Assembly: GCA_000004985.1 (NCBI GenBank)
Contig: GG738915.1
Length of the DNA: 64,000 nt
DNA from: Naegleria gruberi
Taxonomy: Eukaryota
Direction: 5' to 3' (one strand)
The position numbers and the translations under genes are program-made. Positions 1 through 53,741 of this stretch are shown in pieces; position 1 is the first letter of the stretch, and each line of letters opens with the position of its first letter. Below the pieces are notes generated by a model. It searched no databases and had not been told where the DNA came from. It saw nothing but the letters and a program-made list of their open reading frames with translations.

Positions 1-356
1 AGCCAAACCCAAACCCAAACCCAAACCCAAACCCAAACCCAAACCCAAACCCAAACCCAAACCCAAACCCAACCCAAACCCAAACCCAAACCCAAACCCA
101 AACCCAAACCCAAACCCAAACCCAAACCCAAACCCAAACCCAAACCCAAACCCAAACCCAAACCCAAACCCAAACCCAAACCCAAACCCAAACCCAAACC
201 CAAACCCAAACCCAAACCCAAACCCAAACCCAAACCCAAACCCAACCCAACCCCAACCCAAACCCAAACCCAAACCCAAACCCAAACTCAAACCCAAACC
301 CAAACCCAAACCCAAACCCAAACCCAAACCCAAACCCAAACCCAAACCCAAACCCA
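1..356. repeat. Telomere-type hexamer array (CCCAAA)n, about 59 units, C-rich strand reading 5'->3' from the window start (G-strand TTTGGG). Minor variants are CCCAA/CCCCAA at about 241-260 and AAACTC at about 286-294
   Basis: Direct reading shows a perfect 6-nt periodicity of cccaaa. The orientation is as expected for a left chromosome end. A degenerate telomere-like tail (ctaaaccc, accctagccc) continues to about 410. Confidence 0.9.
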
Positions 357-956
357 GTTCTAAAATAGAATTCTTCTAAACCCAACCTTCAAACCCTAGC
401 CCAAAATTATAAACTTATTCAAATATCATTAAATTTTATATCATTCGATAGGAAATGATGAGTAGAACAACGTGGTATATTTAGTTTTTCAATTTATAAA
501 ATATTAACTTTGTAAATAATGTCAGATTAAAATTTCTAAAATGAAACTATAGGAAGAATGATAATTTCAAAATCCTTTAATGAGATTATATAGTATATAT
601 CATCATTAACAACATTCATAATCACTTTCATATCAAATTTCTAAAATTCAAGTCTGTAGACATAAAAGTATGAAGTGAAAAGGGAAGTTGTGAGGTACAA
701 TAGGTCAATAATAACTTCTGAGTTTCTCATCAAAGCATATTATATCCTGATATGAAAATGTTCCATTTGATGAGTAAACATCGAATATCAAATTTATTTT
801 GACATTTATATTTAAAGATTTCTTCCCTCAACCATCATATGGTAAACTATGATGAAAGGATGAAATCTTGAAAAAGGACCTCTATTGAAACTTTACCAAT
901 ATGATTTAGATGACCTATAATAATGTAGAATTCAATTTCATATCATANNNNNNNNN
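357..956. repeat. Subtelomeric unit, copy A (unique AT-rich sequence immediately internal to the telomere array; truncated by the N gap)
   Basis: Bases 357 to about 790 are roughly 90% identical to 3881-4309 (copy B), with the same order of motifs: ttctaaaatagaattcttctaaaccc ... gaaatgatgagtagaacaacgtg ... gagtttctcatcaaagcatat. Confidence 0.75.
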
Positions 957-3510
957 NNNNNNNNNNNNNNNNNNNNNNNNNNNNNNNNNNNNNNNNNNNN
1001 NNNNNNNNNNNNNNNNNNNNNNNNNNNNNNNNNNNNNNNNNNNNNNNNNNNNNNNNNNNNNNNNNNNNNNNNNNNNNNNNNNNNNNNNNNNNNNNNNNNN
1101 NNNNNNNNNNNNNNNNNNNNNNNNNNNNNNNNNNNNNNNNNNNNNNNNNNNNNNNNNNNNNNNNNNNNNNNNNNNNNNNNNNNNNNNNNNNNNNNNNNNN
1201 NNNNNNNNNNNNNNNNNNNNNNNNNNNNNNNNNNNNNNNNNNNNNNNNNNNNNNNNNNNNNNNNNNNNNNNNNNNNNNNNNNNNNNNNNNNNNNNNNNNN
1301 NNNNNNNNNNNNNNNNNNNNNNNNNNNNNNNNNNNNNNNNNNNNNNNNNNNNNNNNNNNNNNNNNNNNNNNNNNNNNNNNNNNNNNNNNNNNNNNNNNNN
1401 NNNNNNNNNNNNNNNNNNNNNNNNNNNNNNNNNNNNNNNNNNNNNNNNNNNNNNNNNNNNNNNNNNNNNNNNNNNNNNNNNNNNNNNNNNNNNNNNNNNN
1501 NNNNNNNNNNNNNNNNNNNNNNNNNNNNNNNNNNNNNNNNNNNNNNNNNNNNNNNNNNNNNNNNNNNNNNNNNNNNNNNNNNNNNNNNNNNNNNNNNNNN
1601 NNNNNNNNNNNNNNNNNNNNNNNNNNNNNNNNNNNNNNNNNNNNNNNNNNNNNNNNNNNNNNNNNNNNNNNNNNNNNNNNNNNNNNNNNNNNNNNNNNNN
1701 NNNNNNNNNNNNNNNNNNNNNNNNNNNNNNNNNNNNNNNNNNNNNNNNNNNNNNNNNNNNNNNNNNNNNNNNNNNNNNNNNNNNNNNNNNNNNNNNNNNN
1801 NNNNNNNNNNNNNNNNNNNNNNNNNNNNNNNNNNNNNNNNNNNNNNNNNNNNNNNNNNNNNNNNNNNNNNNNNNNNNNNNNNNNNNNNNNNNNNNNNNNN
1901 NNNNNNNNNNNNNNNNNNNNNNNNNNNNNNNNNNNNNNNNNNNNNNNNNNNNNNNNNNNNNNNNNNNNNNNNNNNNNNNNNNNNNNNNNNNNNNNNNNNN
2001 NNNNNNNNNNNNNNNNNNNNNNNNNNNNNNNNNNNNNNNNNNNNNNNNNNNNNNNNNNNNNNNNNNNNNNNNNNNNNNNNNNNNNNNNNNNNNNNNNNNN
2101 NNNNNNNNNNNNNNNNNNNNNNNNNNNNNNNNNNNNNNNNNNNNNNNNNNNNNNNNNNNNNNNNNNNNNNNNNNNNNNNNNNNNNNNNNNNNNNNNNNNN
2201 NNNNNNNNNNNNNNNNNNNNNNNNNNNNNNNNNNNNNNNNNNNNNNNNNNNNNNNNNNNNNNNNNNNNNNNNNNNNNNNNNNNNNNNNNNNNNNNNNNNN
2301 NNNNNNNNNNNNNNNNNNNNNNNNNNNNNNNNNNNNNNNNNNNNNNNNNNNNNNNNNNNNNNNNNNNNNNNNNNNNNNNNNNNNNNNNNNNNNNNNNNNN
2401 NNNNNNNNNNNNNNNNNNNNNNNNNNNNNNNNNNNNNNNNNNNNNNNNNNNNNNNNNNNNNNNNNNNNNNNNNNNNNNNNNNNNNNNNNNNNNNNNNNNN
2501 NNNNNNNNNNNNNNNNNNNNNNNNNNNNNNNNNNNNNNNNNNNNNNNNNNNNNNNNNNNNNNNNNNNNNNNNNNNNNNNNNNNNNNNNNNNNNNNNNNNN
2601 NNNNNNNNNNNNNNNNNNNNNNNNNNNNNNNNNNNNNNNNNNNNNNNNNNNNNNNNNNNNNNNNNNNNNNNNNNNNNNNNNNNNNNNNNNNNNNNNNNNN
2701 NNNNNNNNNNNNNNNNNNNNNNNNNNNNNNNNNNNNNNNNNNNNNNNNNNNNNNNNNNNNNNNNNNNNNNNNNNNNNNNNNNNNNNNNNNNNNNNNNNNN
2801 NNNNNNNNNNNNNNNNNNNNNNNNNNNNNNNNNNNNNNNNNNNNNNNNNNNNNNNNNNNNNNNNNNNNNNNNNNNNNNNNNNNNNNNNNNNNNNNNNNNN
2901 NNNNNNNNNNNNNNNNNNNNNNNNNNNNNNNNNNNNNNNNNNNNNNNNNNNNNNNNNNNNNNNNNNNNNNNNNNNNNNNNNNNNNNNNNNNNNNNNNNNN
3001 NNNNNNNNNNNNNNNNNNNNNNNNNNNNNNNNNNNNNNNNNNNNNNNNNNNNNNNNNNNNNNNNNNNNNNNNNNNNNNNNNNNNNNNNNNNNNNNNNNNN
3101 NNNNNNNNNNNNNNNNNNNNNNNNNNNNNNNNNNNNNNNNNNNNNNNNNNNNNNNNNNNNNNNNNNNNNNNNNNNNNNNNNNNNNNNNNNNNNNNNNNNN
3201 NNNNNNNNNNNNNNNNNNNNNNNNNNNNNNNNNNNNNNNNNNNNNNNNNNNNNNNNNNNNNNNNNNNNNNNNNNNNNNNNNNNNNNNNNNNNNNNNNNNN
3301 NNNNNNNNNNNNNNNNNNNNNNNNNNNNNNNNNNNNNNNNNNNNNNNNNNNNNNNNNNNNNNNNNNNNNNNNNNNNNNNNNNNNNNNNNNNNNNNNNNNN
3401 NNNNNNNNNNNNNNNNNNNNNNNNNNNNNNNNNNNNNNNNNNNNNNNNNNNNNNNNNNNNNNNNNNNNNNNNNNNNNNNNNNNNNNNNNNNNNNNNNNNN
3501 NNNNNNNNNN
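957..3510. other. Assembly gap (2554 N)
   Basis: A run of n. All ORFs spanning it in the track are artefacts. Confidence 1.
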
Positions 3511-3880
3511 TAACCCAAACCCAAACCCAAACCCAAACCCAAACCCAAACCCAAACCCAAACCCAAACCCAAACCCAAACCCAAACCCAAACCCAAACCC
3601 AAACCCAAACCCAAACCCAAACCCAAACCCAAACCCAAACCCAACCCAAACCCAAACCCAAACCCAAACCCAAACCCAAACCCAAACCCAAACCCAAACC
3701 CAAACCCAAACCCAAACCCAAACCCAAACCCAAACCCAAACCCAAACCCAAACCCAAACCCAAACCCAAACCCAAACCCAAACCCAAACCCAAACCCAAA
3801 CCCAAACCCAAACCCAAACCCAAACCCAAACCCAAACCCAAACCCAAACCCAAACCCAAACCCAAACCCAAACCCAAACC
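3511..3880. repeat. Second (CCCAAA)n array, about 61 units, same orientation as the first
   Basis: Direct reading. It is followed by copy B of the subtelomeric unit, so this is either an interstitial telomere block or a tandem telomere-subtelomere unit. Confidence 0.9.
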
Positions 3881-4309
3881 CAATTCTAAAAATAGAATTC
3901 TTCTAAACCCAATGTTCAAACCCTAGCCCAAAATTATAAACTTATTCAAATATCATTAAATTTTATATCATTCGATAGCTAATGATGAGTAGAACAACGT
4001 GTTATATTTAGTTTTTCAATTTATAAAATATTAACTTTGTAAATAATGTCAGATTAAAATTTGTAAAATGAAACTATAGGAAGAATGTTAATTTCAAAAT
4101 CCTTTAATGAGATTATATAGTCTATATCATCATAAACAATATTCATAATCACTTTCATATCAAATTATAAAAGTTCATGTCTGTAGATATAAAAGTATAG
4201 AGTGAAAAGGGAAGATGTGAGGTAAAAGAGGTCAACAATAACTTTTGAGTTTCTCATCAAAACATATTGAATCCTGACATGAAAATGTTCCATTTGGTGA
4301 GTATACATC
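3881..4309. repeat. Subtelomeric unit, copy B (truncated by a 50-N gap at 4310-4359)
   Basis: About 90% identical to 357-790. Confidence 0.75.
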
Positions 4310-4359
4310 NNNNNNNNNNNNNNNNNNNNNNNNNNNNNNNNNNNNNNNNNNNNNNNNNN
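4310..4359. other. Assembly gap (50 N) inside the subtelomeric EGF-repeat gene
   Basis: n run. Confidence 1.
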
Positions 4360-6379
4360 AGTAAGATGTTTCATTCATAGAAATATTATTAAAAGTAATG
4401 TTACTAATAATTGTGCTATTTTGTGGTATAGTAACATTACAACTTAATCCAGTGAAACTCTCTTTGCACTCACATGTATCATTCATTGTACAATTACCAT
4501 TTCCTGAGCAGACAGAACTATTACTATTCAGAACACCAAAACACGAAACTAGTAAATAAATTTGTGAGGACTCAGCAGAGACGTTACTGTTAATAATGGT
4601 ATTGTTGATAGTGGGTTGAAGGAGGGGAGAATTTACATCCGTTTCATTAGTGTTGGAAGTTGAGTTATGAGAAGAGTTATTGTTCATTTTGGTTTCGTTG
4701 AAATAAGCAGTATCATTTAAAGAAATATAGTTCAAACTACTGTTGGTTATTGATTTGCTAGGGTTCATTTTGGTTTCATTAAAGTGCACTGTATCATTTA
4801 AGGAAGTGGTATTTACAGTATTATTACTCAAAGAAATATAATTTGAAGTGCCATTAGTTATTGATATGTTGCTCATTATAGTTTCGTTAAAGTAAGATGT
4901 TTCATTCATAGAAGTATTATTAAAAGTAGTGTTAGCAAAAGAAATATTGCTAATAATTGTACTATTTTGTAAAATTGTCACATTACAACTTAATCCAGTA
5001 AAATGAGATTTACACGAGCATGTATCATGCATTGTACAGTTACCATTTCCAGAACATACTGAACTATTGGTATTCAGAATACCAAAACAATTATAGAAGA
5101 AGCAATCATTTCCAAAATATCCACTTTCACAGGTACAATTGTTATAAAAGCTGCAATCTCCATGACCTGAACAAACCTTTGAATTATTAGAAGAAACGCC
5201 ATAACAGGAAGTAAAGTGACATTCATCACCAGTGTAACCATCATTACAGGTGCAATTATTTGGGGATGAACATACACCACTTGAGGAACAAACTTGAGAC
5301 GAACTACCGAGAATTCCATAACAATTATGGTGTTGACACTCATTTCCAAAAAACCCACTTTGACAAGAACAATTATTTGGAGATGAACACAATCCTCTGG
5401 AAGAGCAGACACTGGAATTGTCAAAAGAAATTCCAGAACAGTCGTAATTTTGGCAATTATTGCCTGTAAAATCAAATTCACAATGGCAATCGTCTACTTC
5501 AGCACATATACCTCTTCCTAAACAAACTTCACTTGAATTAGAATAAATATCATTACATGTTGTAATTGAGCAATTAGAGCCATAATAATTTAAATAACAT
5601 GAACATGAATTATAATCAGTGCATGAACCATGTCCTGAGCAAACATCAGAATTTGTTTTTGGTACAGAGTAGCAATCAAAATTTTCACAATCAGGTCCAT
5701 AATAATTTGAAACGCAAGAACATGAATTATAATCTACACATATTCCTTTTCCTGAGCAAACTTCACTTGAATTAGAATAAATATCATTACATGTTGTAAT
5801 TGAGCAATTAGAGCCATAATAATTAGATGAGCAGCTACAAGTGTTATATGATGCACAAGTACCATGATTAGAACAGCCAGTTGTAAGAGAATTTGAATAT
5901 CCATTACAAGTCCAAGAAGAACAATTAGCACCTGAGTAACCATATGAACACGAACAATTGTTAACATCTATACAATTTCCATTTGAATTACAAACAGTGG
6001 AGTCATCAGATCTAATCGAGTAACAATAGGGTAGATTACAATAACCTCCACCATAATTTGCATCACACACCATGTAAATTTTTCTGAGTTCATCACTTTC
6101 TGCAATTAACATCAAGTTGTTATCGCTGGAAAAAGTCAAACCTACAAGTGTGTTGAACTTGGTATAAGCCAGAGTTTCTCCATCATTATATGTTCCAGCA
6201 CTATTACCAGCATAGGACGTTATTGTACCAGTGTTAGCATTGGCAGTGGCAGGTGTGAAAAGTTTAAGAGCACCACTCTCAGTGTAGTATACATTACCGT
6301 TGTCGTTTACATAAAAATCTTTGATGGCTACAGAAGAGGTCTTATTAAGTTAGTTTAAATAGTTCAATCAAAACTTACA
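4360..6379 (-). CDS. Partial gene for a secreted/surface-type protein. An N-terminal region is followed by about 10 tenascin-type EGF repeats (C-x-C-x2-G-[YF]-x-G-x2-C). Then come two near-identical copies of a segment (SVCSGNGNCTM.DTC.CK.SFTGLSCNVTI) embedded in a very NxS/T-rich (N-glycosylation-sequon-rich) Ser/Asn/Thr region. The 3' end is lost in the 4310-4359 gap, and the 5' end is lost in the 6386-6435 gap.
   Basis: The ORF at 4232..6139 in the track begins with TTG, not ATG. The same frame stays open upstream to a canonical minus-strand intron (GTAAGT at about 6378-6373 ... TCTGTAG ending at about 6328), which joins a further upstream exon fragment at 6379-6385. An internal 200-nt DNA duplication lies at 4360-4560 versus 4880-5090. 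The part of the track ORF at 4232-4309 lies in the subtelomeric repeat and is probably not coding. Confidence 0.6.
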
Positions 6380-6385
6380 GTAAAA

Positions 6386-6435
6386 NNNNNNNNNNNNNNN
6401 NNNNNNNNNNNNNNNNNNNNNNNNNNNNNNNNNNN
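6386..6435. other. Assembly gap (50 N) at the 5' end of the subtelomeric EGF-repeat gene
   Basis: n run. Confidence 1.
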
Positions 6436-6439
6436 ATAT

Positions 6440-6930
6440 CATGGTATGTAGACACTCTAATTAGTATGTGGTATCAATTTCATGAATATTGGTTCAGTAG
6501 ATGTCGAGGTGTCAACTCTATCAATTTACTATAGATATTTGACATGATATCATAGATTATACTCCAAATCACTCATTTTACGTATAACAAGTCTAGAATT
6601 GATACCACATAGTCTATATATCAATTAAATACATCTACAATAGTTAAGAAACATTTCAAACTATTTTCATAAAATTAATCAGTAAATGTTCAATATCAAC
6701 ATTATATATATCCTAGTGAACACTCCATCTCAGTGAAAGTTATTCCAATCATTCTGTAACTTTACCCAATACGTTTAGTCACACTATTATACATCTGGTA
6801 TCAATTTCATAGTTTTAGAATTGAATTCAATATGATAATAATAACAATCTTTCAAAATATCACATTTCAAAAAAGAGATTACACTCCATCTCAGTCAGTT
6901 TACAAAATATCATACTAGTATCAAATATGA
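6440..6930. repeat. Degenerate short tandem/dispersed motif family: acactccatctcagt[cg]a (6717-6735, 6883-6901; third copy at about 9172-9190) and ggtatcaatttcat (6472-6485, 6797-6810), with roughly 160-325 bp spacing
   Basis: Exact 15-nt matches are seen in AT-rich non-coding DNA. No ORF support. Confidence 0.35.
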
Positions 6931-9900
6931 ATAGACTCCTCTTGATGAGGAGTACAATCTGAGAAAGTTTCAAATTGATGGCTCAGTATCTTCAAGTCAA
7001 CTAAGTCAACCTTAGAATAGACAAGTCAATTAAGTACATCAAGTCAATAATTGAAAATTGAAATATAGTATATTTATTAAATATTAATAGGACTCTTCTA
7101 AATAACTATATTGTTTAAATCAATATTTGTAAAGTTGTCAACACATCATGTCACAGATCATACTCTTTCTCAATAAATACTTGACTAAATCAATTGAAAT
7201 TGACATAGAGTTGTTTATATGTAGTACTGAATATGTTATATCAATATCTTTTAAAATTGTCAAGTATTAAGGAAGATCTAAAAAAAATAAGGTGGTTATA
7301 ATGAATAAGTTAGTAAAATCACCTTGAATCGATCACTCGTCCCTTAATTGACGATCCGGCATACAACCACTGAACCAACAGTGTTATAGCTGTAATTTCT
7401 AGAAATGCTTCATATGAAGAACCAAGTGGTTGTATGACCTGGAATTGTCGGCTTCTATTAAGAACAACAATTAACAAAATAACAACAAGAATTGTATCAT
7501 TATATGATAATAACAATAATTTATTAAACAATATGGAAGGGAGAAGTTGCTCCCTCACCAAATGATGGAGGGAAGATTCAACTTGATGAACAAGAGATGG
7601 TACCTCCACCATCTACTTAAATTCAGTATCATTGAAGATTATCCTGATGATCTTGATAAATAGATTCATACATCGGAAAAGTGTTGGAAGCAGAGTAATT
7701 TGGCGTTGTATTTTGATAATCGTAATATTTTAAAGGGTTAAAAATGGAGTTAATTAATGCGATTATCAAAATAATGGCTTTAAATCCATGGCTATTAGCA
7801 CTGCCAACAAGCAAATTGTGGAGTGAGAAACATTACCACTTCCACCTAATATTAATAAATATTATTTACTTGTTCCTTAATGATCTTAATGATATCGGAA
7901 TAAGTGCGCACCGCAATTAAAGATAGTTTCACACTTGTTCAACACAGCTATTAAGCAATAGAAAATTAACAAGTTTAACACCAATTCAAATACAAAATAC
8001 TCAACAATTACTGAATTAAATGCAAATATCCCAACGTCATTTTGTAGAGAATTAAGTTGAACCTATGCGATTTTTCACCTTTTGCCAAATGGTTGCGTAT
8101 CTAGCAAGCCCCCCCAAGAGAACAAAAAACACAGAAATATTGAGGTAAAACGAGTTGATTATCTACATTATTTGATAGCAACCAATATTAAAATTATATA
8201 TCAGCATGTAGCCGTGAACATTTCCTATCTAATGATATATATCGATGTATATGAAGTCTTATAAATAATGATGTTTTAAGAGCGCAGATTAATATCCAAA
8301 CCCTAGTAAAATGTTGAGTTTCACCAAAATAAAGATATTTCCAAGACATAGAAATCACCCATACTATTCTACTATATTAAATATATCTATGATGACGGTT
8401 GGTGAGTGTTCCGAGGATGGTTTACCAACTTGAAAAATTATAATCCAAAAATTGATTTACTATTTTATGATGAAAGTCCAATAATAAAAATTACTACTAT
8501 TACTACTATTTAGATGATGTTGAGATGATGATGTGAAAGTTTGGCAGCTTACGGATGTGAAACCACTCGAAGAATCATCAAAGTACATCACGTACTAGAT
8601 GTTGAAATATTTTTTCACATATTCGCAACTGAACAAACAAACCTTGCTTCAAAAAATCAACCAAACTCTAGTAATACCTTGCTTGGTTTTCGTTCCAACA
8701 ATTCAAGCCAAACAACACAAGAGAATCTATTTAATATAATTGGAAAATTCAATTTTATTAAATGTATCATTCAATTTATCGGTGTTACTAAGGTTGTGCA
8801 TTTTCCATTTTGGTTTACCGTCATCAGTATTAAGCGGATGCTCTTCTCCCGTCTGTAGTAAGAAACTGAGTGTTCTCCGTCTCATCCGTCCCCCGTTTCA
8901 CCGTCACTTAGTACCATCTCCTATTTAGATGATATAATGATGACTCTCCATTGTAACATGCATGTGAAATTGAATGTTGACACTTTTCATCTTGTTATAT
9001 TTATAGAGATGCTATCCAACAGAGTCAGTTCACAATATTAAATATTGAAACTCATTCTGTATGACATGTTTGATGTATAGAACGGTTTTTTATTGAATGT
9101 AATCAGTTTGAAATAATTTGATGAAACTGACACTGTCAGGTCACCATTTCATGACAAATAGACCATAGTTTACATTCCATCTCAGTCATTTCAACGAGTT
9201 ATTGATTAATTCCACCACCATTATGTTTCTCATACATTGTAGTACAGTTAATATTTCAAGAGTGATTTCTGTGTAGATTAGTATAATCGTAATACCTTGC
9301 CATACCAATAAAACTCAATAGAAGAGTTAATTCTTCTCATTTTCAAATAGATTATTCAATATAGAACACATATAGATAGTTTCCAGATCATAAAAGTCAA
9401 GATACTATATATGGTCTTTGATTAAATTTAAAAATAGACTGCCGTTAATTACTGGAATATTAATTCAAAGCTTGATGATAAAGCTATTGATTGAAATCAA
9501 ACCGATTATTGAATATTGATCATTGAATTGGTGAATAATCACTCTTGATAATGTTACTTATTCATATTGCATGCAAATCAACCTGATTCAATCTACAAAG
9601 GTTGGTAGTTGCACCACTTCGTGGCGAAACTACCCATCCACGATCAATCAACATTAGATTCACTTCCATTCAACTCAATTTGACCGTTATAATCAATAAA
9701 TCAATGAAATGTTACTTTATTAGCAATACCTATTCAATCTAATGAGTAGATTCACGTCCCAAACATTTGAATTCTCAAAGTCCATAGTTCAAAAGTTAGT
9801 ACTGACCTGACCTTTAAATATCTATCAATACAAGAAATTAAAACATCAAATTTACATCAATAATAGATGATAAGAAATATAATCAATGATATGAATCTTC

Positions 9901-10275
9901 ACTAAGTAATATCTTAAATAACCCAAATAAATCAACTCTGAATCCTAACCAAACCCTGAGCCAAATTAAAATAATTTCAAAGAGTAAACTTGCGTAATAC
10001 TATTTAAATTAACCTGTTCCAACAACATCCGAGATGTATTTATTGATTTGAAATTTTTCTAAAGTGATGATGATATTAAATTTCTTGACGATTAAAATTT
10101 CAAACAATAAAATTACTATTCGTGTATCCAAATATGATGTACATTGAATATCAATGTTTTCCATATTGAAATGATGAGATAATCAGCAATGATGAAGTGA
10201 TTATTTTTTTTTCAACTTTGAAAAATGTTAAGGAATCTTAATTAGTTCTTTATTCGATATTAATCGCCTAGACAT

Positions 10276-13200
10276 TTAAACCGATTTCAGTTCAACTCCT
10301 TGTTTTGATTCATTACTGGTTTCTGGTTTCATTTTCTTAACAACATACCAACCAACAATTCCCAATACAATAAAGGCAAAAATGATAAAGCAAATAATCA
10401 AGAAAGACCACAAAATCCAGAATAAATCAGAGATTCTCTTTGGAGTTTCAGGATTAACCGGTTTTTCAATTGGAATAGATGATAAAATACCAACTCTAAC
10501 ATTTTCTGAACATTCACAGTTTCCATAATTAGTATTGAAAGAGAATTTACATGAAGAAGCATCAATGACTTGACCGTTTGTAACTTGAATGCATGAATAA
10601 GTTGCCTTATCATTAAAGGTTTGTGTAAGTGGCAAGGAGTGAGTAATTGGTGAGGAATAGTTTGTAATAGATGTTGAGAATTTAATTTCAGACAAATCTG
10701 AAACAATAGTATTAGTTTTACCATCTTGAGGAGTAATAATTTGAGAAACATCCTTAATAATCATCCAAATGTAATTGACTGGCTTTCTGAGAGACACGCT
10801 TTGTAACCTTTGAGAAACAGTTGAAGGAAGGGTCAATGAAGTTTTACTTTCTGTCAATACTTGAGAATCAAAAGTATTCTTAAATTGCTTGTTGAATTGA
10901 TGAACTGCAAAATTAGTTTCAAACTTGGAAGAAGATTGACCAACAAGAACCTTTCTTGAAAGTAATGATGCCAACATGTGACAACTTTCCATCAATTCTG
11001 AATAATCATAAGAAGGTAAAGTCTTTAAGTACGAATGCATTGAGTTGAGTGATGAAATTAACAGCTTATCAGCACCGACTTCAACTTGGAATGATGGAGA
11101 ATTTTCAGCATCATCCAAGGTTGACCTGATAATATTCAAACTCTTATTATAGAGATTGGCAGAAACGTCACTCTTCAATAAAGATTCAACACCGAACATT
11201 ATGTTAGTAAAGAACTTTCCAGTTGTCTTTTCTCCATTTTCAGACTTGACTTGTTGAGAAGAGAAGAATGCAGTTGCCAAATCTTGATTAATTCCATTCA
11301 AAATTTCATAATCTTTCTTTGTCATTCTACAGTCAGATGTTGTGTAATCTTCCTCACATACACATTTTTCTTTAATCAAAAATCCATGACCAGAACAATC
11401 AGTCCTTACACTTCTTGATGTAGTTGTGAGGAAGGAATCTCTCATTCTCTGGAAAGTTCTTGAAATGGTTGCAGAGTTGAAAACAGATCTAGCATAATCA
11501 CCAGATGGTAATAATGAGGAGATGGCATTCCATTTTGTAATGTAATCCTTGACTTCCATGACATTTTCTACGGACGGAGCTGTAATTTGAACTGATTGTT
11601 TGGAAAGAGTTGTTGCAAGTGTTTCAGTATCAATAACCTTAACATAAAGTTCAAGATTATTGCCAGAATTTGGAGTTGGAAGTTTTTGATACAATTCTTC
11701 ATCCTTGGATAAGGAAATAAAAGAGCCTGAGAAATCATCAATGAAACCATATTCGAAAGCATAAGTCTTCTTATCGTTTTGACAATTTTCACAATTGAAA
11801 TTAAAGATTGTGGTCAAGGCAACACCAGAAGTTGGACTAATGGCACAACTACATGCCTTTGGAGGTCTGTTAACAGAGAAGGAATAAGAATATGATGTCT
11901 TTTGATTATTTCTATTATCCAAGACAGTTAATGAAATGGTATTAGAACTACCTTCATCCAAATATTGGGTATCCAAAATGAGAGAATTTGACAATGATGG
12001 ACTGCTGCTCATAGGTGATGTCAATACAGCATCAATGGCCTTATCATTCAATAACCATGTTCTAGTGATGAATTGATCAATATTTGAATCACCGTTAATA
12101 GTGACAACCAATTGAACGCTGACATAATCTCCCTTATTTACCTTTGAGGAAGATACTTGAACAACAGAGATCAAAGGTGGCATGATGACATTCTCTGCTT
12201 GTTGTGGTAAAATCAAATCAACTGATGATTGAACAGATCTACTTCCCTTTTGAATATTAAGGCTAATTCTAACATTTTCTGCTGAACCAACAATTGACTT
12301 TTCAATCTTGTATTGTTCAAGAACACCTTGAGATAAGTAATTTACAACAGCAGCTGGACAAGCAGTGTTTGTAACAGTATTCACACATGTCCAAGAATAA
12401 GTTGGTTGAACATTTTCAGACTCAGGATCAGTGAAATCTAATCCAATGGTACTGTATTGAGGAGTAGAATCTAAAACATACATGTTCATTGAGAGTGCTT
12501 GAGCTACAGTGTTGATATTGACCTCAGCCGTTGAAACTCTGTCAATATTAGAAGTATCGAAAGCAGAGACTTTGAAAACATATTGAATATTTCCAATGGT
12601 ATTGAATTTGGTAATCTTTAAATTCTTGAATGAATCAACTGCGAATTCTACTTGAGGACCACTTATTTGTTTCCATGTGTAGTCAATATTTGCAGCAGAG
12701 TCCATGTATGTTGGAATGGAAAGCTTCTTCTTGACTGAAATTGGAACATCACTAGTCTTGACAGTAATTGTACTTCTTTCATATAAACCATCAATGGAAA
12801 CAACTGGAACAGCATACGCAAGTTTTGTGAAACTGACTTGAATCTTATCAACCAATGAATAAACTTGACTGGTTACGGCCAATTCAAATTTATGGAAACC
12901 AGCATTCATACCAGAATAGCTAACATTCAATTTACTTGGAGAAACAAGAGATGTATCCAACAAGTTTTGAAGTGCTACCTTATTAGGTGCTAACAATACA
13001 GTCCATTTGAAATTTAATGCCTTTCTATCAGGTGAATAACTTTCAGAAGCATCAATTAAAACATCTTCACAACTTCCATAAGTTTCCTTAGCTCCAGAGA
13101 TTGTGGCAATTGGTCTTTTTGGTGATAAAGCAGCCTGGACGGTAAATGCCAAATATTGAACCGCGGTATTATTTGATTCAAAGTATAAATTATTCAAAGA

Positions 13201-16200
13201 GATACTATCACCTGCCTTCAATTTGTAATCAGAATCAAGTTCAATTGAGAATTCAAAGGTTTCCTTGTTAGTCCAGTAACATTTTGGTTTGGTTCCAAGA
13301 AGATCAACACTCTTCAACAACTTGTTACAATCAAGAATCATACTATTGGTATATGTAGAAGAATAAGATGCAGGTGCAACAACCTTAAATTTCAAACCAG
13401 TCAAATCATCCATAAAAAGAACTGGTCCAATAATCTTGGTTGAACACAATTCACCATAAACTCCATCAGCACATGAGGAACAAGATTCACCCTTCCAGAA
13501 ACCCTTCTTGTTATCAGCAAAACAAGTACATTGTTCAAGATCATTACAATAACCATTTCCACTGCAAGTTGTTGTGGCATTACATTTAACCAAACTACTA
13601 CACATAGAACCAATGTATGGAGAAACACATACTGAACAAACTGAACCAGTCCAAAAACCCTTGACAGCTGTACTATCACAAACACAAGTATTAAAGTCTG
13701 TACATTTACCATGTCCAGAACAAACAGATGAAGCATTAGAAGAAATGCCACCACAAGTGAATTGAGCACAATCACTTCCAGAATATCCAGGTTGACAAGA
13801 ACAATGATCGAAAGAATCACATCTACCTTTTCCAGAACAAGCTGATGCAGTTGAGGAAATTCCAAAACAATTAAATTGGCTACAATCATTACCAAAATAT
13901 CCAGCTGAACAGGAGCAATTATTTGGAGAATTACAAGTACCATTACCAGAACAAACAAAGGCATTGCTTGGGGCAATACCAAAACATTTGAAAGAACTGC
14001 AATCTGATCCACTGTATCCACTTGAGCAGGAACAGTTATTTGGGGAGATACAACTACCGTGATTTGTACATACTGATGCACTAGTTGAGGCAGTTCCATA
14101 ACAATCAAATTTTCGACAATCATTTCCGTAGTATCCACTTGAACAGGAGCAGTTATTTGGTGAGATGCAACTACCATGTCTAGAACAAACTGAACCACTT
14201 GTTGAGACAGTTCCATAACAATCATATTGAGTACACTCGTTCCCATAATATCCAACTAAACACGAACAGTTATTTGGTGAGAGACAACTACCATGTCTAG
14301 AACAAACTGAACCACTTGTTGAGGAAGTTCCATAACAATCATATTGAGTACACTCATTTCCATAATAGCCTGATAAGCATGAGCAATTATTTGGGGAGAT
14401 ACAACTTCCGTGATTAGAACATGATGATGTATTTGTGGAGGCAGTTCCATAACAATCAAATTGGCTACAATCACTTCCATAGTATCCAGAGACACATGAA
14501 CAATTATTTGGTGACAAGCAACTACCATGTCCTGAACATGCTGAACTTGTTGATACATTTCCATAACAATCAAATTGACTACAATCATTTCCGTAATAGC
14601 CTGATGAACATGAACAATTATTTGAGGCAACACAACTACCGTGTCCAGAACAAACTGAACCACTCGTGAATATAGTTCCATAACAATCAAATTGGCTACA
14701 ATCATTTCCATAATATCCAACTAAACATGAACAGTTATTTGGGGAGATACAACTCACCATATCTAGAACAAACTGAACCACTTGTTGAGGAAGTTCCATA
14801 ACAATCATATTGAGTACACTCATTTCCATAATAGCCTGATAAGCATGAGCAATTATTTGGGGAGATACAACTTCNNNNNNNNNNNNNNNNNNNNNNNNNN
14901 NNNNNNNNNNNNNNNNNNNNNNNNNNNNNNNNNNNNNNNNNNNNNNNNNNNNNNNNNNNNNNNNNNNNNNNNNNNNNNNTGCCATAACATTGGAAAGAGC
15001 TGCAATCTGATCCACTATATCCAGCTAAGCATGAGCAGTTATTTGGTGAGAGACAGGCACCGTGTCCAGAACATACTGAACCATTTGTTGAGGCAATTCC
15101 AAAACAATCAAATTGACTACAATCATTTCCATAGTGGTCATTAGAGCATGAGCAATTATTTGGTGAGATACAACTTCCTTGACCAGAACAAGCTGATGAA
15201 GAAGTAAATAAGGTACCAAAACATTCATATTGGCTACAGTCACCAAAGTAACCTGAAGCACATGAACAATTATTTGGGGCAATGCAACTACCACGACCAG
15301 AACAAACTGATGAACTTATACCTGGGGCAATTCCATAACATTTGAATAAACTACAATCTTCACCACTGTATCCAGATGAGCAGGAACAACTGTTTGGAGC
15401 AACACAACTTCCATGTCCTGAGCAAACTTTGCGGTCAGTATTCAAATAATCACCACATGTAAAAAGTTGACAGTTTGAACCAGAGTAAGTGGTAGATTCG
15501 CAGTCACAAGTATCAGTTTTTGTACATGTTCCGTGACCTGAGCATACAGTAGAGTTGTCACCTGAAATTCCATTACATGTTGGATATTGACAAGTATTAG
15601 GAGCAACACATGTGGCATATGTTGGACATGCTTCTGGATGTGTGGCCACGATACCATTACACTTTGGAGTTTTACATTCACTACCTCCCCACAAAACACC
15701 ATAATTTGTCAAATCATTTACAGAAGGAAAACCGGTAATTGACTCGGCATTTAACGTAAAGCAATGATCTTAGAAAATTGTTTGTGAACAAAGTTAAAGC
15801 TTAATTACTTACCAGTGGAGGAATAAACAACCAAATGGCCATCGACTTGAAGAACAAATTTAAAAGGTCCAGTATGGGTACCACAATCATTTTTTGGATC
15901 AAGAGTGGTAATCAAAGAAGCACCATCCATAATCTTTAGAGAACCATCATCTTGGCTGAGCACAAGCTTGTAGCCACCATTTTTTGCAGGACCCACTGAT
16001 CTTTGAAAGTTTTTCATGAAAACACCCTCATAAAATTGAGAAAGACTTCCATCATTGTTCAATGTAAGTGCAATTTTTCCATCAGCAGATGTTAATGTGT
16101 TCGTTGCGAGGAGAATTGGCGACTCAGCAGTAAGGGCTGTAGAAGGGGAAATATCAACACAAAGACAATTATCATTTCCGAAGCAAATATTACCGCCACA

Positions 16201-16302
16201 AGTAGAAGTGTTTGTTCCTGGAATGCCATAGCATGTTGAAGCTGAAACCTCACTCACAATGAAAAGCAAGAGGATTGCCAACACTGAAAAGAACAGTTTC
16301 AT
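10276..16302 (-). CDS. Giant type-I membrane adhesion-type protein. It has a signal peptide and a bulb-type (mannose-binding, B-lectin) domain. About 30 tenascin-type EGF repeats follow (each about 31 aa, e.g. CSGHGSC.SPNNCSC.SGYYGNDCSQFDCYG), then a beta-rich extracellular region of about 900 aa, a TM helix (LFWILWSFLIICFIIFAFIVLGIVGWYVV) and a short cytoplasmic tail. It is interrupted by a 105-N gap (14875-14979) and an apparent frameshift near 14750.
   Basis: Exon 1 (16302..15813) encodes MKLFFSVLAILLLFIVSEVSAS, then a B-lectin domain with QxDxxL-type motifs (LSQDDGSLKI, QVDGHLVVY). A GTAAGT donor begins right after ...SSTG, and a 44-nt intron (15812..15769, ...TTTTCTAAG) joins in phase 1 to exon 2. 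Exon 2 is in frame with track ORFs 14735..15712 and 10276..15015. The EGF cysteine spacing is read directly from the translation. 14290-14404 and 14760-14874 are near-identical at the nucleotide level. Confidence 0.7.
14875..14979. other. Assembly gap (105 N) inside the EGF-repeat array of the giant lectin-EGF gene
   Basis: n run. Confidence 1.
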
Positions 16303-17001: not shown

Positions 17002-17862
17002 TCAAGGCTTATCAAGGTCTATAAATAATGTATAGACCATCGCCTTATTAACACCAGCGGATGTGTTTGATGACACCTCAAACATTGTGCCACAACATGT
17101 TACATGGGGAATTATCAATCCAACTATTTTCCAAGTGTTTGGTTTCATCCCAAACACGCCACTCTTGAAAATCATCAACAACTCTTTCATAATTGTTGTT
17201 TGGTGTATTCTTGTTAAGATACCATAGGTTTCATCTGGAATAATTACAACACAGCCAACATCAGTCAAACAAAATGTTGAAGGAATATTTCACGAGTTTT
17301 CATTGTTTATTAGACACTAGATACGTCTTTCAAAAACTCTTTCAGCCATCAATCTTCCATGATAGATAGATCCTTGGAAAGAATTGTAATTTCTAGTTTC
17401 CTTCAATTCAAAACCATGTTGAAGCAACAATTCCCAAAGTCCATTCGAATTTTGAATCATTGGTCCAGCATTAATATTTGAATAATTATCATTAATCAAT
17501 TCCTTTCCCAATTTCAGCTCTACAACATCACCATCCAATTGAACTCTTACAATGACATCTCCAATTTGGTAATCATCAATGGATGGAAAATCCATTTCGA
17601 ATATTTCCTTGAAAATTGCTAAAGGAAGGGACAATCTTTGCATGACTTCAAAGGTTGGAGTCCAAGCAGCTACCTCCTTTACAGTGATATATTGCTTAGT
17701 TTTCTTCTTTCTAATAACTGTTGTAGTAGGTTTGCTTGGTTTCACAATAATTTCTGGTACTGTATCGACAGCTGTTTCAACAACAACTGGTTCTTGGACA
17801 GGAATTGGTTTCTCCTTCTTGACTGAGACAACTGCAGAAAGTGGTGGAGGTGGAGGTGGCAT
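17002..17862 (-). CDS. Hypothetical protein with a poly-Pro N-terminus (MPPPPPPLSAV...). It is either 181 aa ending at TAG 17317, or spliced (candidate 90-nt intron 17324..17235, GTATCT...TTCCAG, phase 1) to the 17002..17234 ORF.
   Basis: ATG at 17860-17862. The downstream ORF stays open in the phase required by the candidate splice and has no ATG of its own (TTG). Confidence 0.4.
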
Positions 17863-18184
17863 GATGATCTTTGTTTTTTTTAATGTTGTGTGTGTTAGAA
17901 TGTCACTTTGTTAGACGGACTTTTAAAGCACTAATCTTTTGGGGTAGAAGAACTGGAAGGAAGACTGTAAAGTTTATGGAACACATCAAAAATATAAAGA
18001 TACAAGCTAGCTGGTGCCTCTTCCTTTTTAAATTATTTGGAACAAGGTGAAACTTCGAATAGATCTAATGCATTACAATGAATGTTACAACAAAATCCAA
18101 TAACAGTTATTCTAAAGTAGCAAACGGGTTGGAGTGAATTATGTCAAAAAAGTCTAAAAAAAGGTTTTGAGTTTAAAAGGGAAT

Positions 18185-18256
18185 GGGGACCAGTGGGAAT
18201 CGAACCCACGGCCTCTCGCACCCAAAGCGAGAATCATACCACTAGACCATGGTCCC
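18185..18256 (-). tRNA. tRNA-Pro (anticodon TGG)
   Basis: Reverse complement GGGACCATGGTCTAGTGGTATGATTCTCGCTTTGGGTGCGAGAGGCCGTGGGTTCGATTCCCACTGGTCCCC. It forms a 7-bp acceptor stem, the anticodon loop TTTGGGT, and a T-arm GTGGGTTCGATTCCCAC. It is near-identical to canonical eukaryotic tRNA-Pro. Confidence 0.85.
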
Positions 18257-18323
18257 TTACACTTAGATATTGAGAAAAGTCATATCCCTTATATACCCTT
18301 AATAAAATTATGAAAGATTTATT

Positions 18324-20882: not shown

Positions 20883-21181
20883 TTTTTAAAGATGATATTG
20901 ATGTTTTTAGATGCGAGTTCATGCAGGTGACGGGTAGGAAGATAGAAAATAGTACCACTACATTGTTGGCGAGTTTTTGTTGTGCTTTTTTAAAGTCTTT
21001 GGAAGAGACCAACGATACTGTGTGATGATTGTTGATGATGCTTCTGTCTAAAGAGAGAGGTAAAACTAGCCGTTGAAAAATTCAAAAATTTTATCAAAAA
21101 AAAATAAAACACAACACTTCTCTCGCCAAATCATCACGAATTTTTTATCAACATGTAGGAAGAGAATGGCAATATTGTTAT

Positions 21182-52481: not shown

Positions 52482-53741
52482 GTATGGTATATAATAGTTG
52501 AATATTTAAAACAAAACTACTTGATAAAATTAACAACAAGTATGAACCTACTCAAAATTCAATATATCAATATTTGAAAAATTAATGTTCTCTCGGGATC
52601 AACAACACTGATGCCAAATGCCAGCTGTCAAAGTAGTTTTTTTTTCTTCGTCATCTTGATTACTAGCACTCTGCACTCGCCAACTTCAATATTTTGGCCC
52701 TTCGTCTAAAAGCCTATTGGTTTGTTATTGCGTTGACACTTGAAAATTTCACACTCTAGTGGGTTGTCAATAACCCTAATTCGGAAGGCAACTTTTTGGG
52801 AAGATTTGAAATTCCACATCTTAAGGCTATTGCGAATATTAACAATGGACATGGAATTAAACTCCAATACATTATTATTATTGAATGATTACAATTTGTA
52901 ACACATCCTTTGAAAACTTTCCAATAGTTTGAAAATATTGGAAAGTTTTCGAATTGACTTTTCGATGTGTTGATATCAAATAAAGAATGTACATTGAAAC
53001 AAATGAAAAAAAGAGGATGGATGGTCAATGAATGTGTAATCCTTTCTACTGAGATTGAAAACGTGCTCTTCATGGTCGATTTTCGAATAACCTTGATTGT
53101 AATGTTATCCTAAATGGCAAATGGATGAACCATCACATCAAAGATCTGAAGATTTTAAAGCAAGTTGGTGTCTTCGTCAAAATGGGTATTTTACTATTAT
53201 CTTTTTAAAGAATCAACATGTCATGTTTGAAAATGTTGTCATGTGACATTTTGGTGAAGAAAACAATTATTGTACAGTAAATTCTCAAACACCGTTCACA
53301 GTAGGAAAACCACGTCATCTTCTTTAATACTGTAAATTATTATCTTTTCACACTTTACAATAATGCTGCACCAGCCCTACAATCCTTTCGTATAATATTT
53401 GACACACAATCAACAGACCCTATCCAAATCAACTCAGAGCACAAGCCAACTTGGATTTACACTCATTTTATTAGGATCATGCACCGTACTACTTTCGAAT
53501 AGTTTTCTCCTATCAATGAACTTGTTGAGCACATGACTATTACGGATAATTTACTAGTTTCTGTAGAGCACTTATTGTAAAACAGTCATTTTACTGTAGT
53601 GTGGTAATGGTTAGAAAATGACCAAGAAAAGATAATTGGTAGAGTTGAGCACGTTTCGGTGGTGAAATTTTGCATTTTACCTTTTTGGGATGGTGTTCAC
53701 TTCCGAGGTGAAAATTTTTGATGTTCGTAGATTTTCAAATA

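What the first reader, a model, noticed from the sequence alone, without database searches (positions are those of the whole stretch)
4232..16302. Two subtelomeric genes for EGF-array surface proteins with highly homogenised internal repeats
The first two genes after the telomere both encode tenascin-type EGF arrays. One has an extremely NxS/T-dense tail; the other runs to about 1900 aa. Within each gene the repeat units are near-identical at the DNA level, for example 4360-4560 vs 4880-5090 and 14290-14404 vs 14760-14874. All three intragenic assembly gaps and one apparent frameshift (about 14750, ca inserted relative to the sister repeat) fall inside these arrays. Near-identical coding repeats next to a telomere are the hallmark of rapidly evolving adhesin or variant-surface loci, in which repeat number changes by slippage or gene conversion.
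Basis: partly seen in the sequence, partly recalled or inferred. Interest (0 to 1): 0.6.

Follow-up and report, generated by a model that had tools for sequence, protein, structure and literature searches.

The report
Naegleria chromosome-end EGF-repeat receptor genes
The first 16 kb after a Naegleria gruberi telomere hold one already-annotated gene for a large lectin/EGF-repeat/REJ/GAIN surface receptor and a broken fragment of a second EGF-repeat gene; only the middle of the receptor's repeat array is young and unstable, so this is an ordinary repeat-rich surface-protein locus, not a demonstrated variant-surface system.

Summary
The window is the left end of a 260-kb scaffold of the published Naegleria gruberi NEG-M genome. 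It uses the standard code and TTTGGG telomeres.

Gene 2 (10276-16302, minus strand) is NAEGRDRAFT_74515. It is a type I membrane protein of about 2,000 aa. Its parts, in order, are a signal peptide, a bulb-lectin-like head, at least 17 teneurin/tenascin-type EGF modules, PKD/REJ, a GAIN domain with a degenerate cleavage site, one TM helix and a 20-aa tail.

Gene 1 (4360-6349) is only a fragment bounded by two assembly gaps: one NHL blade, an EGF array and an NxS/T-rich stalk. Its "stop" at 4232 lies in non-coding subtelomeric repeat.

"Highly homogenised" is overstated. EGF units in gene 2 have a median DNA identity of 70%. Only the central units reach 87-93%. One 113-nt stretch is identical to a sister unit; it abuts the gap and ends beside the 1-nt frameshift (extra C at 14755), which suggests an assembly problem.

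An 85%-identical paralogue on another scaffold differs by about four central EGF units, and its lectin head is only 52% identical. Repeat turnover is therefore real. Antigenic-variation-like behaviour is untested.

Interest is low to moderate.

The parts
1..356 (+). Terminal telomere tract (CCCAAA)n, the complement of TTTGGG
   Evidence: Read directly. TTTGGG is reported as the candidate N. gruberi telomere repeat in PMC3622300.
357..947 (.). Telomere-adjacent AT-rich element, copy 1 (non-coding), ending at a 2,563-N gap
   Evidence: Positions 3-782 are 95% identical to 3527-4309. The element has no long ORF and carries stops in all frames.
3511..3882 (+). Second (CCCAAA)n tract in the same orientation, internal to the scaffold
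3883..4309 (.). Telomere-adjacent element, copy 2. It contains the apparent 'stop codon' of gene 1 at 4232-4234.
   Evidence: The 26 codons 4232-4309 are part of the repeat element. In copy 1 the same frame has upstream stops.
4310..4359 (.). Assembly gap (50 N) between the subtelomeric element and the gene 1 contig
4360..6349 (-). Gene 1 fragment: a 663-codon open frame with no start, signal peptide, TM helix or true stop. 6349-6068 is one NHL-like blade. 6067-4988 is about 10 EGF units. 4987-4556 is the NxS/T-rich stalk. 4555-4360 is a second copy of the last EGF unit plus the start of the stalk.
   Evidence: Translation and Pfam EGF families. The best relatives are NHL-propeller + EGF + stalk + TM proteins of Naegleria, Acrasis and Willaertia at no more than about 45% identity. 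No further NHL coding sequence lies upstream. Sequon count.
6386..6435 (.). Assembly gap (50 N) upstream of the gene 1 fragment
6436..10275 (.). 3.8-kb ORF-poor spacer (longest ORF 105 aa) with no similarity to any fetched protein
10276..16302 (-). Gene 2 = NAEGRDRAFT_74515 (XP_002670457.1, D2VZK0). ATG at 16300-16302, TAA stop at 10276-10278.
15769..15812 (-). 44-nt GT..AG intron of gene 2
   Evidence: The deposited model P0257 uses the same junction.
15689..16161 (-). Bulb-type-lectin-like head (aa 48-190, spanning the intron). It has three DG-L--Y subsites; site III reads QVDGHLVVY.
   Evidence: A profile of this domain plus two homologues hits solved bulb-type lectins (1dlp 7e-15, pyocin L, garlic and snowdrop agglutinins). 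Gene 2 alone gives 7e-4. It aligns to the N. lovaniensis bulb-type lectin protein at 2e-14. Pfam B_lectin is not reached.
13438..15664 (-). EGF array: 14 canonical 35-aa six-Cys units found by pattern, one unit split by the gap, and longer modules at each end. The period is 117 nt.
14875..14979 (.). Assembly gap (105 N) inside the EGF array. At least 13 codons of one unit are missing.
14762..14874 (-). Contig end that is 113/113 identical to 14296-14408. Identity falls to about 88% immediately downstream.
14755..14755 (+). Extra C (G on the coding strand) that shifts the frame. It lies 119 nt from the contig end, where the perfect identity stops.
   Evidence: The deposited protein reads 27 aa out of frame here.
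11575..13437 (-). PKD-like repeats and REJ module
   Evidence: Pfam REJ PF02010 at 6e-27, 94.7 bits (cut-off 25); K319L-like PKD at 6e-8.
10426..11574 (-). Membrane-proximal helices, one EGF module and a GAIN domain (helical subdomain followed by a beta-sandwich). The GPS-like motif CECSENVRVGIL starts at 10518.
   Evidence: AlphaFold2 model with pLDDT 79.5 and pTM 0.70. The top six Foldseek PDB hits are all GAIN domains, E 5e-12 to 1e-7. Motif alignment.
10279..10425 (-). Single TM helix (LFWILWSF...GWYVV) and a 20-aa cytoplasmic tail (KKMKPETSNESKQGVELKSV)
   Evidence: Translation. The model shows helix 381-414.

Best explanation
The region is the end of a Naegleria gruberi NEG-M chromosome scaffold.

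GENE 2
It carries one intact, already annotated gene (NAEGRDRAFT_74515) for a large type I surface glycoprotein. From the N-terminus the protein has:
- a signal peptide;
- a bulb-type-lectin-like head;
- a long stalk of teneurin/tenascin-type EGF modules;
- a PKD/REJ module;
- a GAIN domain whose cleavage triad is lost;
- one TM helix and a 20-aa tail.

By inference it works as a carbohydrate-binding adhesion or sensing receptor of the amoeba surface. The lectin head would contact a ligand such as prey, substrate or another cell. The EGF array would act as a spacer of variable length. The REJ-GAIN unit would be the membrane-proximal mechanical or signalling element, as in sea-urchin REJ1 and polycystin-1.

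The array is an old tandem repeat with stable edges. Its centre has been expanded and partly homogenised by unequal exchange or conversion among 117-nt units since the gene duplicated.

GENE 1
The second coding region is only a fragment of an NHL-propeller/EGF/stalk family gene. It is either a truncated pseudogene next to the telomere or a small contig whose ends are missing from the assembly.

ASSEMBLY
The gap, the 113-nt perfect repeat and the 1-nt frameshift in gene 2 are most likely one Sanger-assembly problem at a recent duplication, not a biological frameshift.

SHOWN VERSUS INFERRED
Shown: organism, gene identity, domain anatomy, repeat identities and the comparison with the paralogue.
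Inferred: ligand binding, function, lack of GAIN cleavage and the artefactual nature of the frameshift.
For: ORGANISM
- Two window ORFs are identical to XP_002670460.1 and XP_002670416.1 on a 260,018-bp scaffold.
- The in-frame TAA codons near the gene 2 3' end (the first is its true stop) and just upstream of the gene 1 open frame are stops, not Gln codons, so the code is standard.
- The telomere repeat matches PMC3622300.

GENE IDENTITY
- P0257 = NAEGRDRAFT_74515, 1,913 aa.

DOMAINS
- EGF and REJ/PKD by Pfam.
- GAIN by a confident model and Foldseek: 4dlo 5e-12, 8oek, 8vy2, 4dlq, 6v55.
- The helix-bundle-then-beta-sandwich order matches the GAIN definition in PMC3321182.
- The four-Cys GPS pattern is conserved across 15 family members, with the HL|T triad replaced.
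- The lectin head is supported by a profile search of the PDB.

REPEAT DYNAMICS
- Unit identity matrix.
- Units 1-5 are positionally orthologous, while units 6-12 are most similar within the same gene.
- The paralogue has about four fewer central units and carries its own pair of identical units.
- Between the paralogues the lectin head is 52% identical, against 81-87% for the flanking EGF units, the REJ and GAIN regions and the TM/tail.

GENE 1 FRAGMENT
-.

ARTEFACT READING
- Perfect identity starts at the contig end and stops within 6 nt of the inserted base.
- Apart from this single base the frame is open over 426 + 1,531 codons.
Against: - No expression, localisation or binding data exist here.
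- Pfam B_lectin is below threshold for gene 2, and two of the three sugar-binding motifs are degenerate.
- The frameshift could be real; no reads or quality values are available.
- The 50-N gaps are placeholders, so the missing ends of gene 1 may simply be unassembled.
- The 20-aa tail has no recognisable signalling motif.
Confidence: 0.65

Rival explanations
1. This is a subtelomeric contingency or variant-surface locus. EGF-repeat receptor genes would sit at many chromosome ends. They would exchange sequence ectopically and change repeat number at high frequency, giving cell-to-cell or strain-to-strain surface variation.
For: - The genes lie 0.5-12 kb from a telomere tract.
- The same telomere-adjacent element occurs in two 95%-identical copies, so chromosome ends share sequence.
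- The central array was duplicated or converted recently.
- An 85% paralogue differs in unit number and has a strongly diverged lectin head.
- That paralogue lies in a cluster of three REJ-family genes with consecutive accessions D2VYF1-3.
Against: - Only one close paralogue was found; the next is 35-37% identical.
- REJ-family genes lie on scaffolds of many different sizes, and their positions relative to chromosome ends are unknown.
- Most repeat units are 60-80% identical, too diverged for frequent slippage.
- Gene 1 has no relative above about 45% identity.
- The organism is free-living, and no data on variation between isolates were available.
Confidence: 0.12
2. The whole terminal 16 kb is decaying subtelomeric DNA. 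Gene 2 would be a recently inactivated pseudogene with a genuine frameshift. Gene 1 would be a truncated remnant, and the 3.8-kb spacer the debris of former genes.
For: - The frameshift is present in the reference, and the deposited model needs 27 out-of-frame residues to pass it.
- Gene 1 lacks both ends.
- The 3.8-kb stretch is ORF-free in a gene-dense genome.
- A contig from another sample (L001) carries only the last 520 nt of the coding sequence, joined to unrelated DNA.
Against: - Only one disabling change occurs in about 5.9 kb of coding sequence, and it lies 119 nt from a contig end.
- All Cys patterns are intact.
- The C-terminus is 97-98% conserved at the protein level in the other sample.
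- The gene 1 frame is open for 663 codons at 30% GC.
Confidence: 0.13
3. The apparent arrangement is largely a scaffolding artefact. The 4360-6385 contig, the first telomere contig, or both, would belong to other loci and would have been linked here through repeated subtelomeric or EGF sequence.
For: - Four gaps fall in the first 15 kb, and there are two telomere tracts in one scaffold.
- The gene 1 contig is bounded by gaps on both sides.
- No coding continuity exists across either gap.
Against: - Scaffolders place contigs by mate pairs, and the 2,563-N gap is a sized estimate.
- No annotated N. gruberi protein is close enough to be the true home of the gene 1 fragment.
- Gene 2 and all downstream genes are on contigs continuous with the rest of the scaffold.
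Confidence: 0.1

Closest known systems
Sea-urchin receptor for egg jelly 1 (SpREJ1) and the wider PKD1/REJ family (PMC1934368)
   Same: Both are large glycosylated surface proteins that combine carbohydrate-recognition domain(s), EGF, a REJ module and a GPS/GAIN region just before the membrane. SpREJ1 and SpREJ2 have only one or two TM helices. Lectin domains are the fast-evolving part in both (for SpREJ; here).
   Different: The lectin here is bulb-type (beta-prism II-like), not C-type. There are at least 17 EGF modules instead of one. The HL|T cleavage triad is absent. There is no PLAT domain, no 11-TM or channel region and no coiled coil.
Adhesion-GPCR GAIN domains (BAI3 4DLO, BAI2 8OEK, CELSR1, latrophilin 4DLQ; PMC3321182)
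   Same: The fold is the same: a helical subdomain followed by a roughly 13-strand beta-sandwich ending in a four-Cys GPS motif directly before the membrane. GAIN domains are already known in protists such as Dictyostelium and Tetrahymena.
   Different: It is followed by one TM helix, not seven. Sequence identity is 11-13%. The catalytic His and Thr/Ser are replaced (EN|V), so autoproteolysis is unlikely.
Teneurin/tenascin-type EGF arrays and the heterolobosean NHL-EGF protein family (N. fowleri FDP41_011322, N. lovaniensis C9374_003885, N. gruberi paralogues)
   Same: They share the six-Cys 35-aa units, the Pfam families EGF_2/EGF_TEN/EGF_Teneurin, and NHL blades N-terminal to the array in gene 1.
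   Different: Gene 1 has only one blade and lacks a signal peptide and TM helix. No orthologue is known (best hits 40-45% over part of the sequence).
Subtelomeric repeat-containing adhesin genes of yeasts (FLO, EPA) and parasite variant-surface families (var, VSG); recalled from general knowledge, not tested here
   Same: They are telomere-proximal, encode a lectin-like head on a repetitive stalk, and change stalk repeat number by recombination.
   Different: Those families have many members at many chromosome ends, near-identical repeats and documented silencing or switching. Here there is one close paralogue, repeats are mostly diverged, and no such data exist.

Membership tests
Tenascin/teneurin-type EGF array | Six-cysteine EGF units scoring above the Pfam gathering threshold, arranged in tandem | tested here: met
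   EGF_2 scores 165 and 120 bits (cut-off 22.1), EGF_TEN 118 and 117 (cut-off 65), EGF_Teneurin 96 and 116 (cut-off 24.3). Gene 2 has 14 regex-defined units and gene 1 has 10.
PKD1/REJ family | REJ module | tested here: met
   PF02010 scores 94.7 bits against a cut-off of 25, E 6e-27. 13 of 18 family members also match.
PKD1/REJ family | GPS/GAIN domain immediately before the first TM helix | tested here: met
   Shown at the fold level only. The model has pLDDT 79.5, and the top six PDB hits are GAIN domains with E down to 5e-12. Pfam GPS is not detected.
PKD1/REJ family | Conserved HL|T(S) autoproteolysis triad | tested here: not met
   The aligned positions read E-N|V in gene 2 and its paralogue, and are variable in the family.
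PKD1/REJ family | PLAT/LH2 domain after the first TM helix, and 11 TM helices or a channel region | tested here: not met
   There is one TM helix and a 20-aa tail. SpREJ1 and SpREJ2 also lack these features.
Adhesion GPCR | GAIN domain fused to a 7-TM domain | tested here: not met
   Only one TM helix follows the GAIN domain.
Bulb-type (GNA-like) mannose-binding lectin | Beta-prism II domain with three QxDxNxVxY subsites, recognised by family profiles | tested here: inconclusive
   A three-sequence profile hits about 35 solved bulb-type lectins, with the best at 7e-15. Gene 2 alone reaches 7e-4. Pfam B_lectin gives no hit for gene 2 and 18.7 bits (cut-off 32.4) for the N. lovaniensis homologue. 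Site III is QxDxHxVxY in gene 2 and canonical in the paralogue; sites I and II are degenerate. No structure model was made for this domain.
NHL-propeller/EGF (teneurin-like) surface proteins of Heterolobosea (gene 1) | Signal peptide, complete NHL propeller, EGF array, stalk and TM helix | tested here: not met
   Only one NHL-like blade, the EGF array and the stalk are present. No further NHL coding sequence, start codon or TM helix is in the window.
Subtelomeric variant-surface or adhesin gene family | Location within a few kb to tens of kb of a telomere | tested here: met
   The telomere tract ends at 3882. Gene 1 runs from 4360 and gene 2 from 10276. This depends on scaffolding across gaps.
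Subtelomeric variant-surface or adhesin gene family | Many paralogues at other chromosome ends | not testable with these tools
   One 85% paralogue lies in a three-gene REJ cluster on another scaffold. N. gruberi DNA outside the window could not be fetched.
Subtelomeric variant-surface or adhesin gene family | Near-identical intragenic repeats prone to slippage | tested here: not met
   Median unit identity is 70%. Only units 6, 10 and 11 (87-93%) and one 113-nt stretch are near-identical.
Subtelomeric variant-surface or adhesin gene family | Repeat-number differences between alleles or isolates, and silencing or switching | not testable with these tools
   Only a comparison between paralogues was possible.

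The most novel reading that the evidence does not exclude
Naegleria chromosome ends may be nurseries for lectin-headed EGF/REJ/GAIN receptors. Ectopic exchange between ends that share the same telomere-adjacent element would diversify the lectin head and stalk length, giving a free-living amoeba a variable repertoire for recognising prey, kin or mates. This would be a non-parasite counterpart of subtelomeric adhesin families.
Probability: 0.1. Interest if true: 0.6.

Novelty: new member of a known kind. Interest (0 to 1): 0.3.

Why it matters
- It corrects a deposited gene model. NAEGRDRAFT_74515 contains 27 out-of-frame residues and lacks at least one EGF unit.
- It gives that "predicted protein" a full domain anatomy: lectin head, EGF stalk, REJ, uncleavable GAIN domain and one TM helix.
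- It places a REJ-GAIN module of the polycystin/sea-urchin REJ type in a heterolobosean.
- It offers a small, clean example of a tandem array with stable edges and a centre that turns over.
- It flags the N. gruberi chromosome end (shared element, two telomere tracts) as worth re-assembly.
- None of this overturns current understanding.

Tried and rejected
1. CILIATE CODE. The C3A3 telomere and the longer ORFs under table 6 first suggested Paramecium-like DNA. I rejected this once the best hits were N. gruberi and the only in-frame TAA codons turned out to be true stops or ORF boundaries.

2. "GENE 2 IS UNANNOTATED." I inferred this from the missing self-hit. It was wrong. The gene was hidden behind a 162-aa cluster representative. 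The missing self-hits for the neighbouring genes are uninformative for the same reason, so the test for a larger segmental duplication is weak.

3. FETCHING OTHER N. GRUBERI LOCI. The paralogue locus and the window's own scaffold could not be fetched; the genome is not in the gene-position index.

4. GUESSING THE PARALOGUE'S POSITION. GenBank and UniProt accession arithmetic was too uncertain, so I dropped it.

5. FIRST GAIN MODEL. A model built from 4 sequences had pLDDT 45.7 and was unusable. It was redone with 18 sequences.

6. PFAM GPS AND B_LECTIN. There were no hits for gene 2, even at E = 10.

7. SEQUENCE SEARCH OF THE PDB. The REJ-TM part gave nothing.

8. SEARCH FOR THE MISSING GENE 1 5' END. 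tblastn for a decayed NHL propeller or REJ remnants in 6386-10300 found nothing.

9. 37-NT INTRON. A GT..AG intron at the frameshift would also restore the frame. I rejected it because it would delete four cysteines of an EGF unit, and the sister unit has the same sequence minus one base.

10. LITERATURE. Searches found no description of Naegleria subtelomeres or of this receptor family.

11. RNA GENES. Rfam and tRNA scans found nothing in 1-17 kb.


Full report
WHAT THE WINDOW IS

The window starts with (CCCAAA)n. Two ORFs further in (23155-24213 minus strand, 26559-28655 plus strand) are identical to N. gruberi proteins XP_002670460.1 and XP_002670416.1, both on a 260,018-bp scaffold. TTTGGG is the candidate telomere repeat reported for N. 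gruberi (PMC3622300). The window is therefore the left end of a scaffold of the published NEG-M draft genome.

My first idea was a ciliate with TAA/TAG coding for Gln. That was wrong. The only in-frame TAA codons are real stops or ORF boundaries.

LAYOUT

| Coordinates | Feature |
|---|---|
| 1-356 | telomere tract |
| 357-947 | AT-rich telomere-adjacent element, copy 1 |
| 948-3510 | gap of 2,563 N |
| 3511-3882 | second telomere tract, same orientation |
| 3883-4309 | the same element, copy 2 (3-782 vs 3527-4309, 95% identical) |
| 4310-4359 | gap of 50 N |
| 4360-6385 | 2-kb contig carrying gene 1 |
| 6386-6435 | gap of 50 N |
| 6436-10275 | ORF-poor spacer (longest ORF 105 aa) |
| 10276-16302 | gene 2, with a 105-N gap at 14875-14979 |

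From 17 kb onward the genes are ordinary: a SPRY-repeat protein, an amine oxidase, a D123-like protein, a K+ channel and an Mx dynamin. No other EGF or REJ coding sequence occurs in the 64 kb.

GENE 2

The ATG is at 16302. A 44-nt GT..AG intron lies at 15769-15812, and the TAA stop at 10276-10278. The gene is annotated as NAEGRDRAFT_74515 / D2VZK0, 1,913 aa.

My first homology search missed it because its 90% cluster is represented by a 162-aa fragment. I therefore withdrew an earlier inference that the gene was unannotated.

The deposited model jumps the gap with an intron. It then reads 27 residues (AIMEMSVLNMIVMELPQQVVQFVLDMV) in the wrong frame to get past the frameshift. With one base removed, the frame is open for 426 codons before the gap and 1,531 after it.

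Domain anatomy of gene 2:
- Signal peptide: MKLFFSVLAILLLFIVSEVSAS.
- A short EGF-like module.
- A roughly 140-aa head domain. It aligns with an N. lovaniensis "bulb-type lectin domain-containing protein" (E 2e-14). A three-sequence profile hits about 35 solved bulb-type lectins (Scilla lectin 1dlp 7e-15, pyocin L1/L2, garlic and snowdrop agglutinins). Gene 2 alone reaches only 7e-4, and Pfam B_lectin is not reached. I call the head "bulb-lectin-like". Of the three QxDxNxVxY subsites, the third is QVDGHLVVY here and canonical (QVDGNMVLY) in the paralogue.
- An array of 35-aa six-Cys EGF units with 117-nt period. Pfam gives EGF_2 4e-49, EGF_TEN and EGF_Teneurin.
- PKD-like repeats and a REJ module (PF02010, 94.7 bits against a cut-off of 25).
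- One more EGF module.
- A roughly 290-aa membrane-proximal domain. With an 18-sequence alignment, AlphaFold2 gives pLDDT 79.5 and pTM 0.70. The model shows five helices, then about 13 strands, then the TM helix. The top six Foldseek hits in the PDB are all GAIN domains (BAI3 4dlo 5e-12, BAI2, CELSR1, latrophilin-1, GPR126). This matches the published definition of the fold (PMC3321182).
- The four-Cys GPS pattern is conserved across the family. The catalytic HL|T positions read EN|V (CECSENVRVGIL), so autoproteolysis is unlikely (inference).
- One TM helix and a 20-aa tail.

The architecture is closest to sea-urchin REJ1, which combines lectin CRDs, EGF, REJ, GPS and one TM helix (PMC1934368). 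It differs in having a different lectin type and many EGF modules.

GENE 1

The open frame 4360-6349 (663 codons) encodes one NHL-like blade, about 10 EGF units and a 144-aa stalk. The stalk carries 23 NxS/T sequons, against 10.2 +/- 2.3 in shuffles. A second copy of "last EGF unit plus start of stalk" follows; 4360-4543 versus 4891-5089 is about 79-81% identical with a 15-nt indel.

Relatives in N. fowleri, N. lovaniensis, N. gruberi, Acrasis and Willaertia have a signal peptide, a full NHL propeller, an EGF array, a stalk and a TM helix. None exceeds about 45% identity.

The window has no start codon, no further NHL coding sequence upstream and no TM helix. The "stop" at 4232 and the 26 codons before it belong to the telomere-adjacent element. 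In copy 1 the same frame is closed by stops just upstream.

Gene 1 is a fragment. It is either a truncated pseudogene next to the telomere or a contig whose ends were not assembled.

HOW HOMOGENISED ARE THE REPEATS?

At the DNA level, the 14 canonical gene 2 units have median pairwise identity of 70% (range 50-93%). Only units 6, 10 and 11 reach 87-93%. TRF reports 8.8 copies at 77% matches for gene 2, and 2.8 copies at 64% for gene 1.

At the protein level, gene 2 units (median 63%) rank second among 86 EGF-array proteins collected here, whose median is 43%. Gene 1 (43%) is average.

The one truly identical stretch is 14762-14874, which equals 14296-14408 (113/113). It begins at the contig end next to the gap. 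Identity stops within a few bases of the inserted C at 14755, after which it is about 88%. Such a coincidence is what a misjoined or single-read Sanger contig end at a recent duplication looks like. I rate the frameshift as probably artefactual, but this cannot be proven without reads.

PARALOGUE AND REPEAT TURNOVER

NAEGRDRAFT_74099 (P0001, 1,835 aa, on a 243,952-bp scaffold) is collinear with gene 2 over its whole length.

| Region | Identity between paralogues |
|---|---|
| Lectin-like head | 52%, with indels |
| Flank EGF units | 81-83% |
| Central EGF units | 71%, with 120 gap columns (about four units) |
| REJ | 87% |
| GAIN region | 83% |

Units 1-5 of each gene match the same position in the other gene best (74-86%). 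Units 6-12 of gene 2 match other units of gene 2 best (80-91%, against 69-80% to the paralogue). The paralogue has its own pair of 100%-identical units.

The array edges have therefore been stable since the duplication. The centre has been expanded or homogenised independently in each copy, which is the usual signature of unequal exchange in tandem arrays.

The paralogue's UniProt accession (D2VYF2) lies between those of two further REJ-family genes on the same scaffold (D2VYF1, 4,502 aa; D2VYF3, 1,514 aa). This suggests a three-gene cluster. Its distance from a chromosome end could not be determined.

An exhaustive search found 194 cluster representatives related to the REJ-TM part (27 at E <= 1e-30). 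The ten looked up by name, among them the best full-length hits, are all N. gruberi proteins on several different scaffolds.

VERDICT

The description is largely right. The strength of "highly homogenised" and the variant-surface interpretation are not supported by what can be tested here.

The locus is an ordinary member of known kinds: EGF-array surface proteins and REJ/GAIN receptors. It has a locally unstable repeat centre, and it sits at a poorly assembled chromosome end.

Noticed in passing
window 1-947 and 3511-4309: Two (CCCAAA)n tracts lie in the same orientation. Each is followed by the same AT-rich element (95% identical over 784 nt), and they are separated by a sized 2,563-N gap. 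This is either a tandem telomere-element arrangement, like yeast Y' elements separated by internal telomere repeats, or another chromosome end mis-scaffolded here.
   Followed up: partly
window 14755-14874 and protein XP_002670457.1: The deposited model of NAEGRDRAFT_74515 splices over the gap and contains 27 residues translated out of frame (AIMEMSVLNMIVMELPQQVVQFVLDMV). This avoids the 1-nt frameshift.
   Followed up: yes
window 6436-10275: This 3.8-kb stretch has no ORF above 105 aa and no similarity to any fetched protein, which is unusual for a gene-dense genome. It may be a regulatory or heterochromatic subtelomeric spacer, or fully decayed genes.
   Followed up: partly
L001 1-1144 (Logan contig from run ERR1078381) versus window 10099-10794: A contig from another sample is 96.5% identical to only the last ~520 nt of the gene 2 coding sequence plus the 3' flank. 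Its upstream 442 nt are unrelated AT-rich sequence. It could be a truncated copy in another strain or an assembly chimera.
   Followed up: partly
other N. gruberi scaffold (243,952 bp); proteins P0108, P0001, P0115: The 85% paralogue of gene 2 has a UniProt accession lying between those of two further REJ-family genes (4,502 and 1,514 aa). This implies a cluster of three such receptor genes.
   Followed up: partly
alignment A4, 18 REJ-family proteins: Four family members combine an NHL propeller with EGF arrays and a REJ module in one protein. The two architectures seen separately in gene 1 and gene 2 are thus joined elsewhere in the family.
   Followed up: no
window 53709-53848 and 55874-56013: A 140-nt inverted repeat (91% identical) carries two tRNA-Gln(TTG) genes in opposite orientation, with a tRNA-Gly(GCC) at 55705-55775. 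A tRNA-Pro(TGG) lies at 18185-18256, just downstream of the SPRY-repeat gene.
   Followed up: no
window 17317-22654: The SPRY-repeat and amine-oxidase ORFs gave no self-hit in the protein search. The closest relatives listed were about 42% identical. This is probably a cluster-representative effect of the database and not missing annotation.
   Followed up: no
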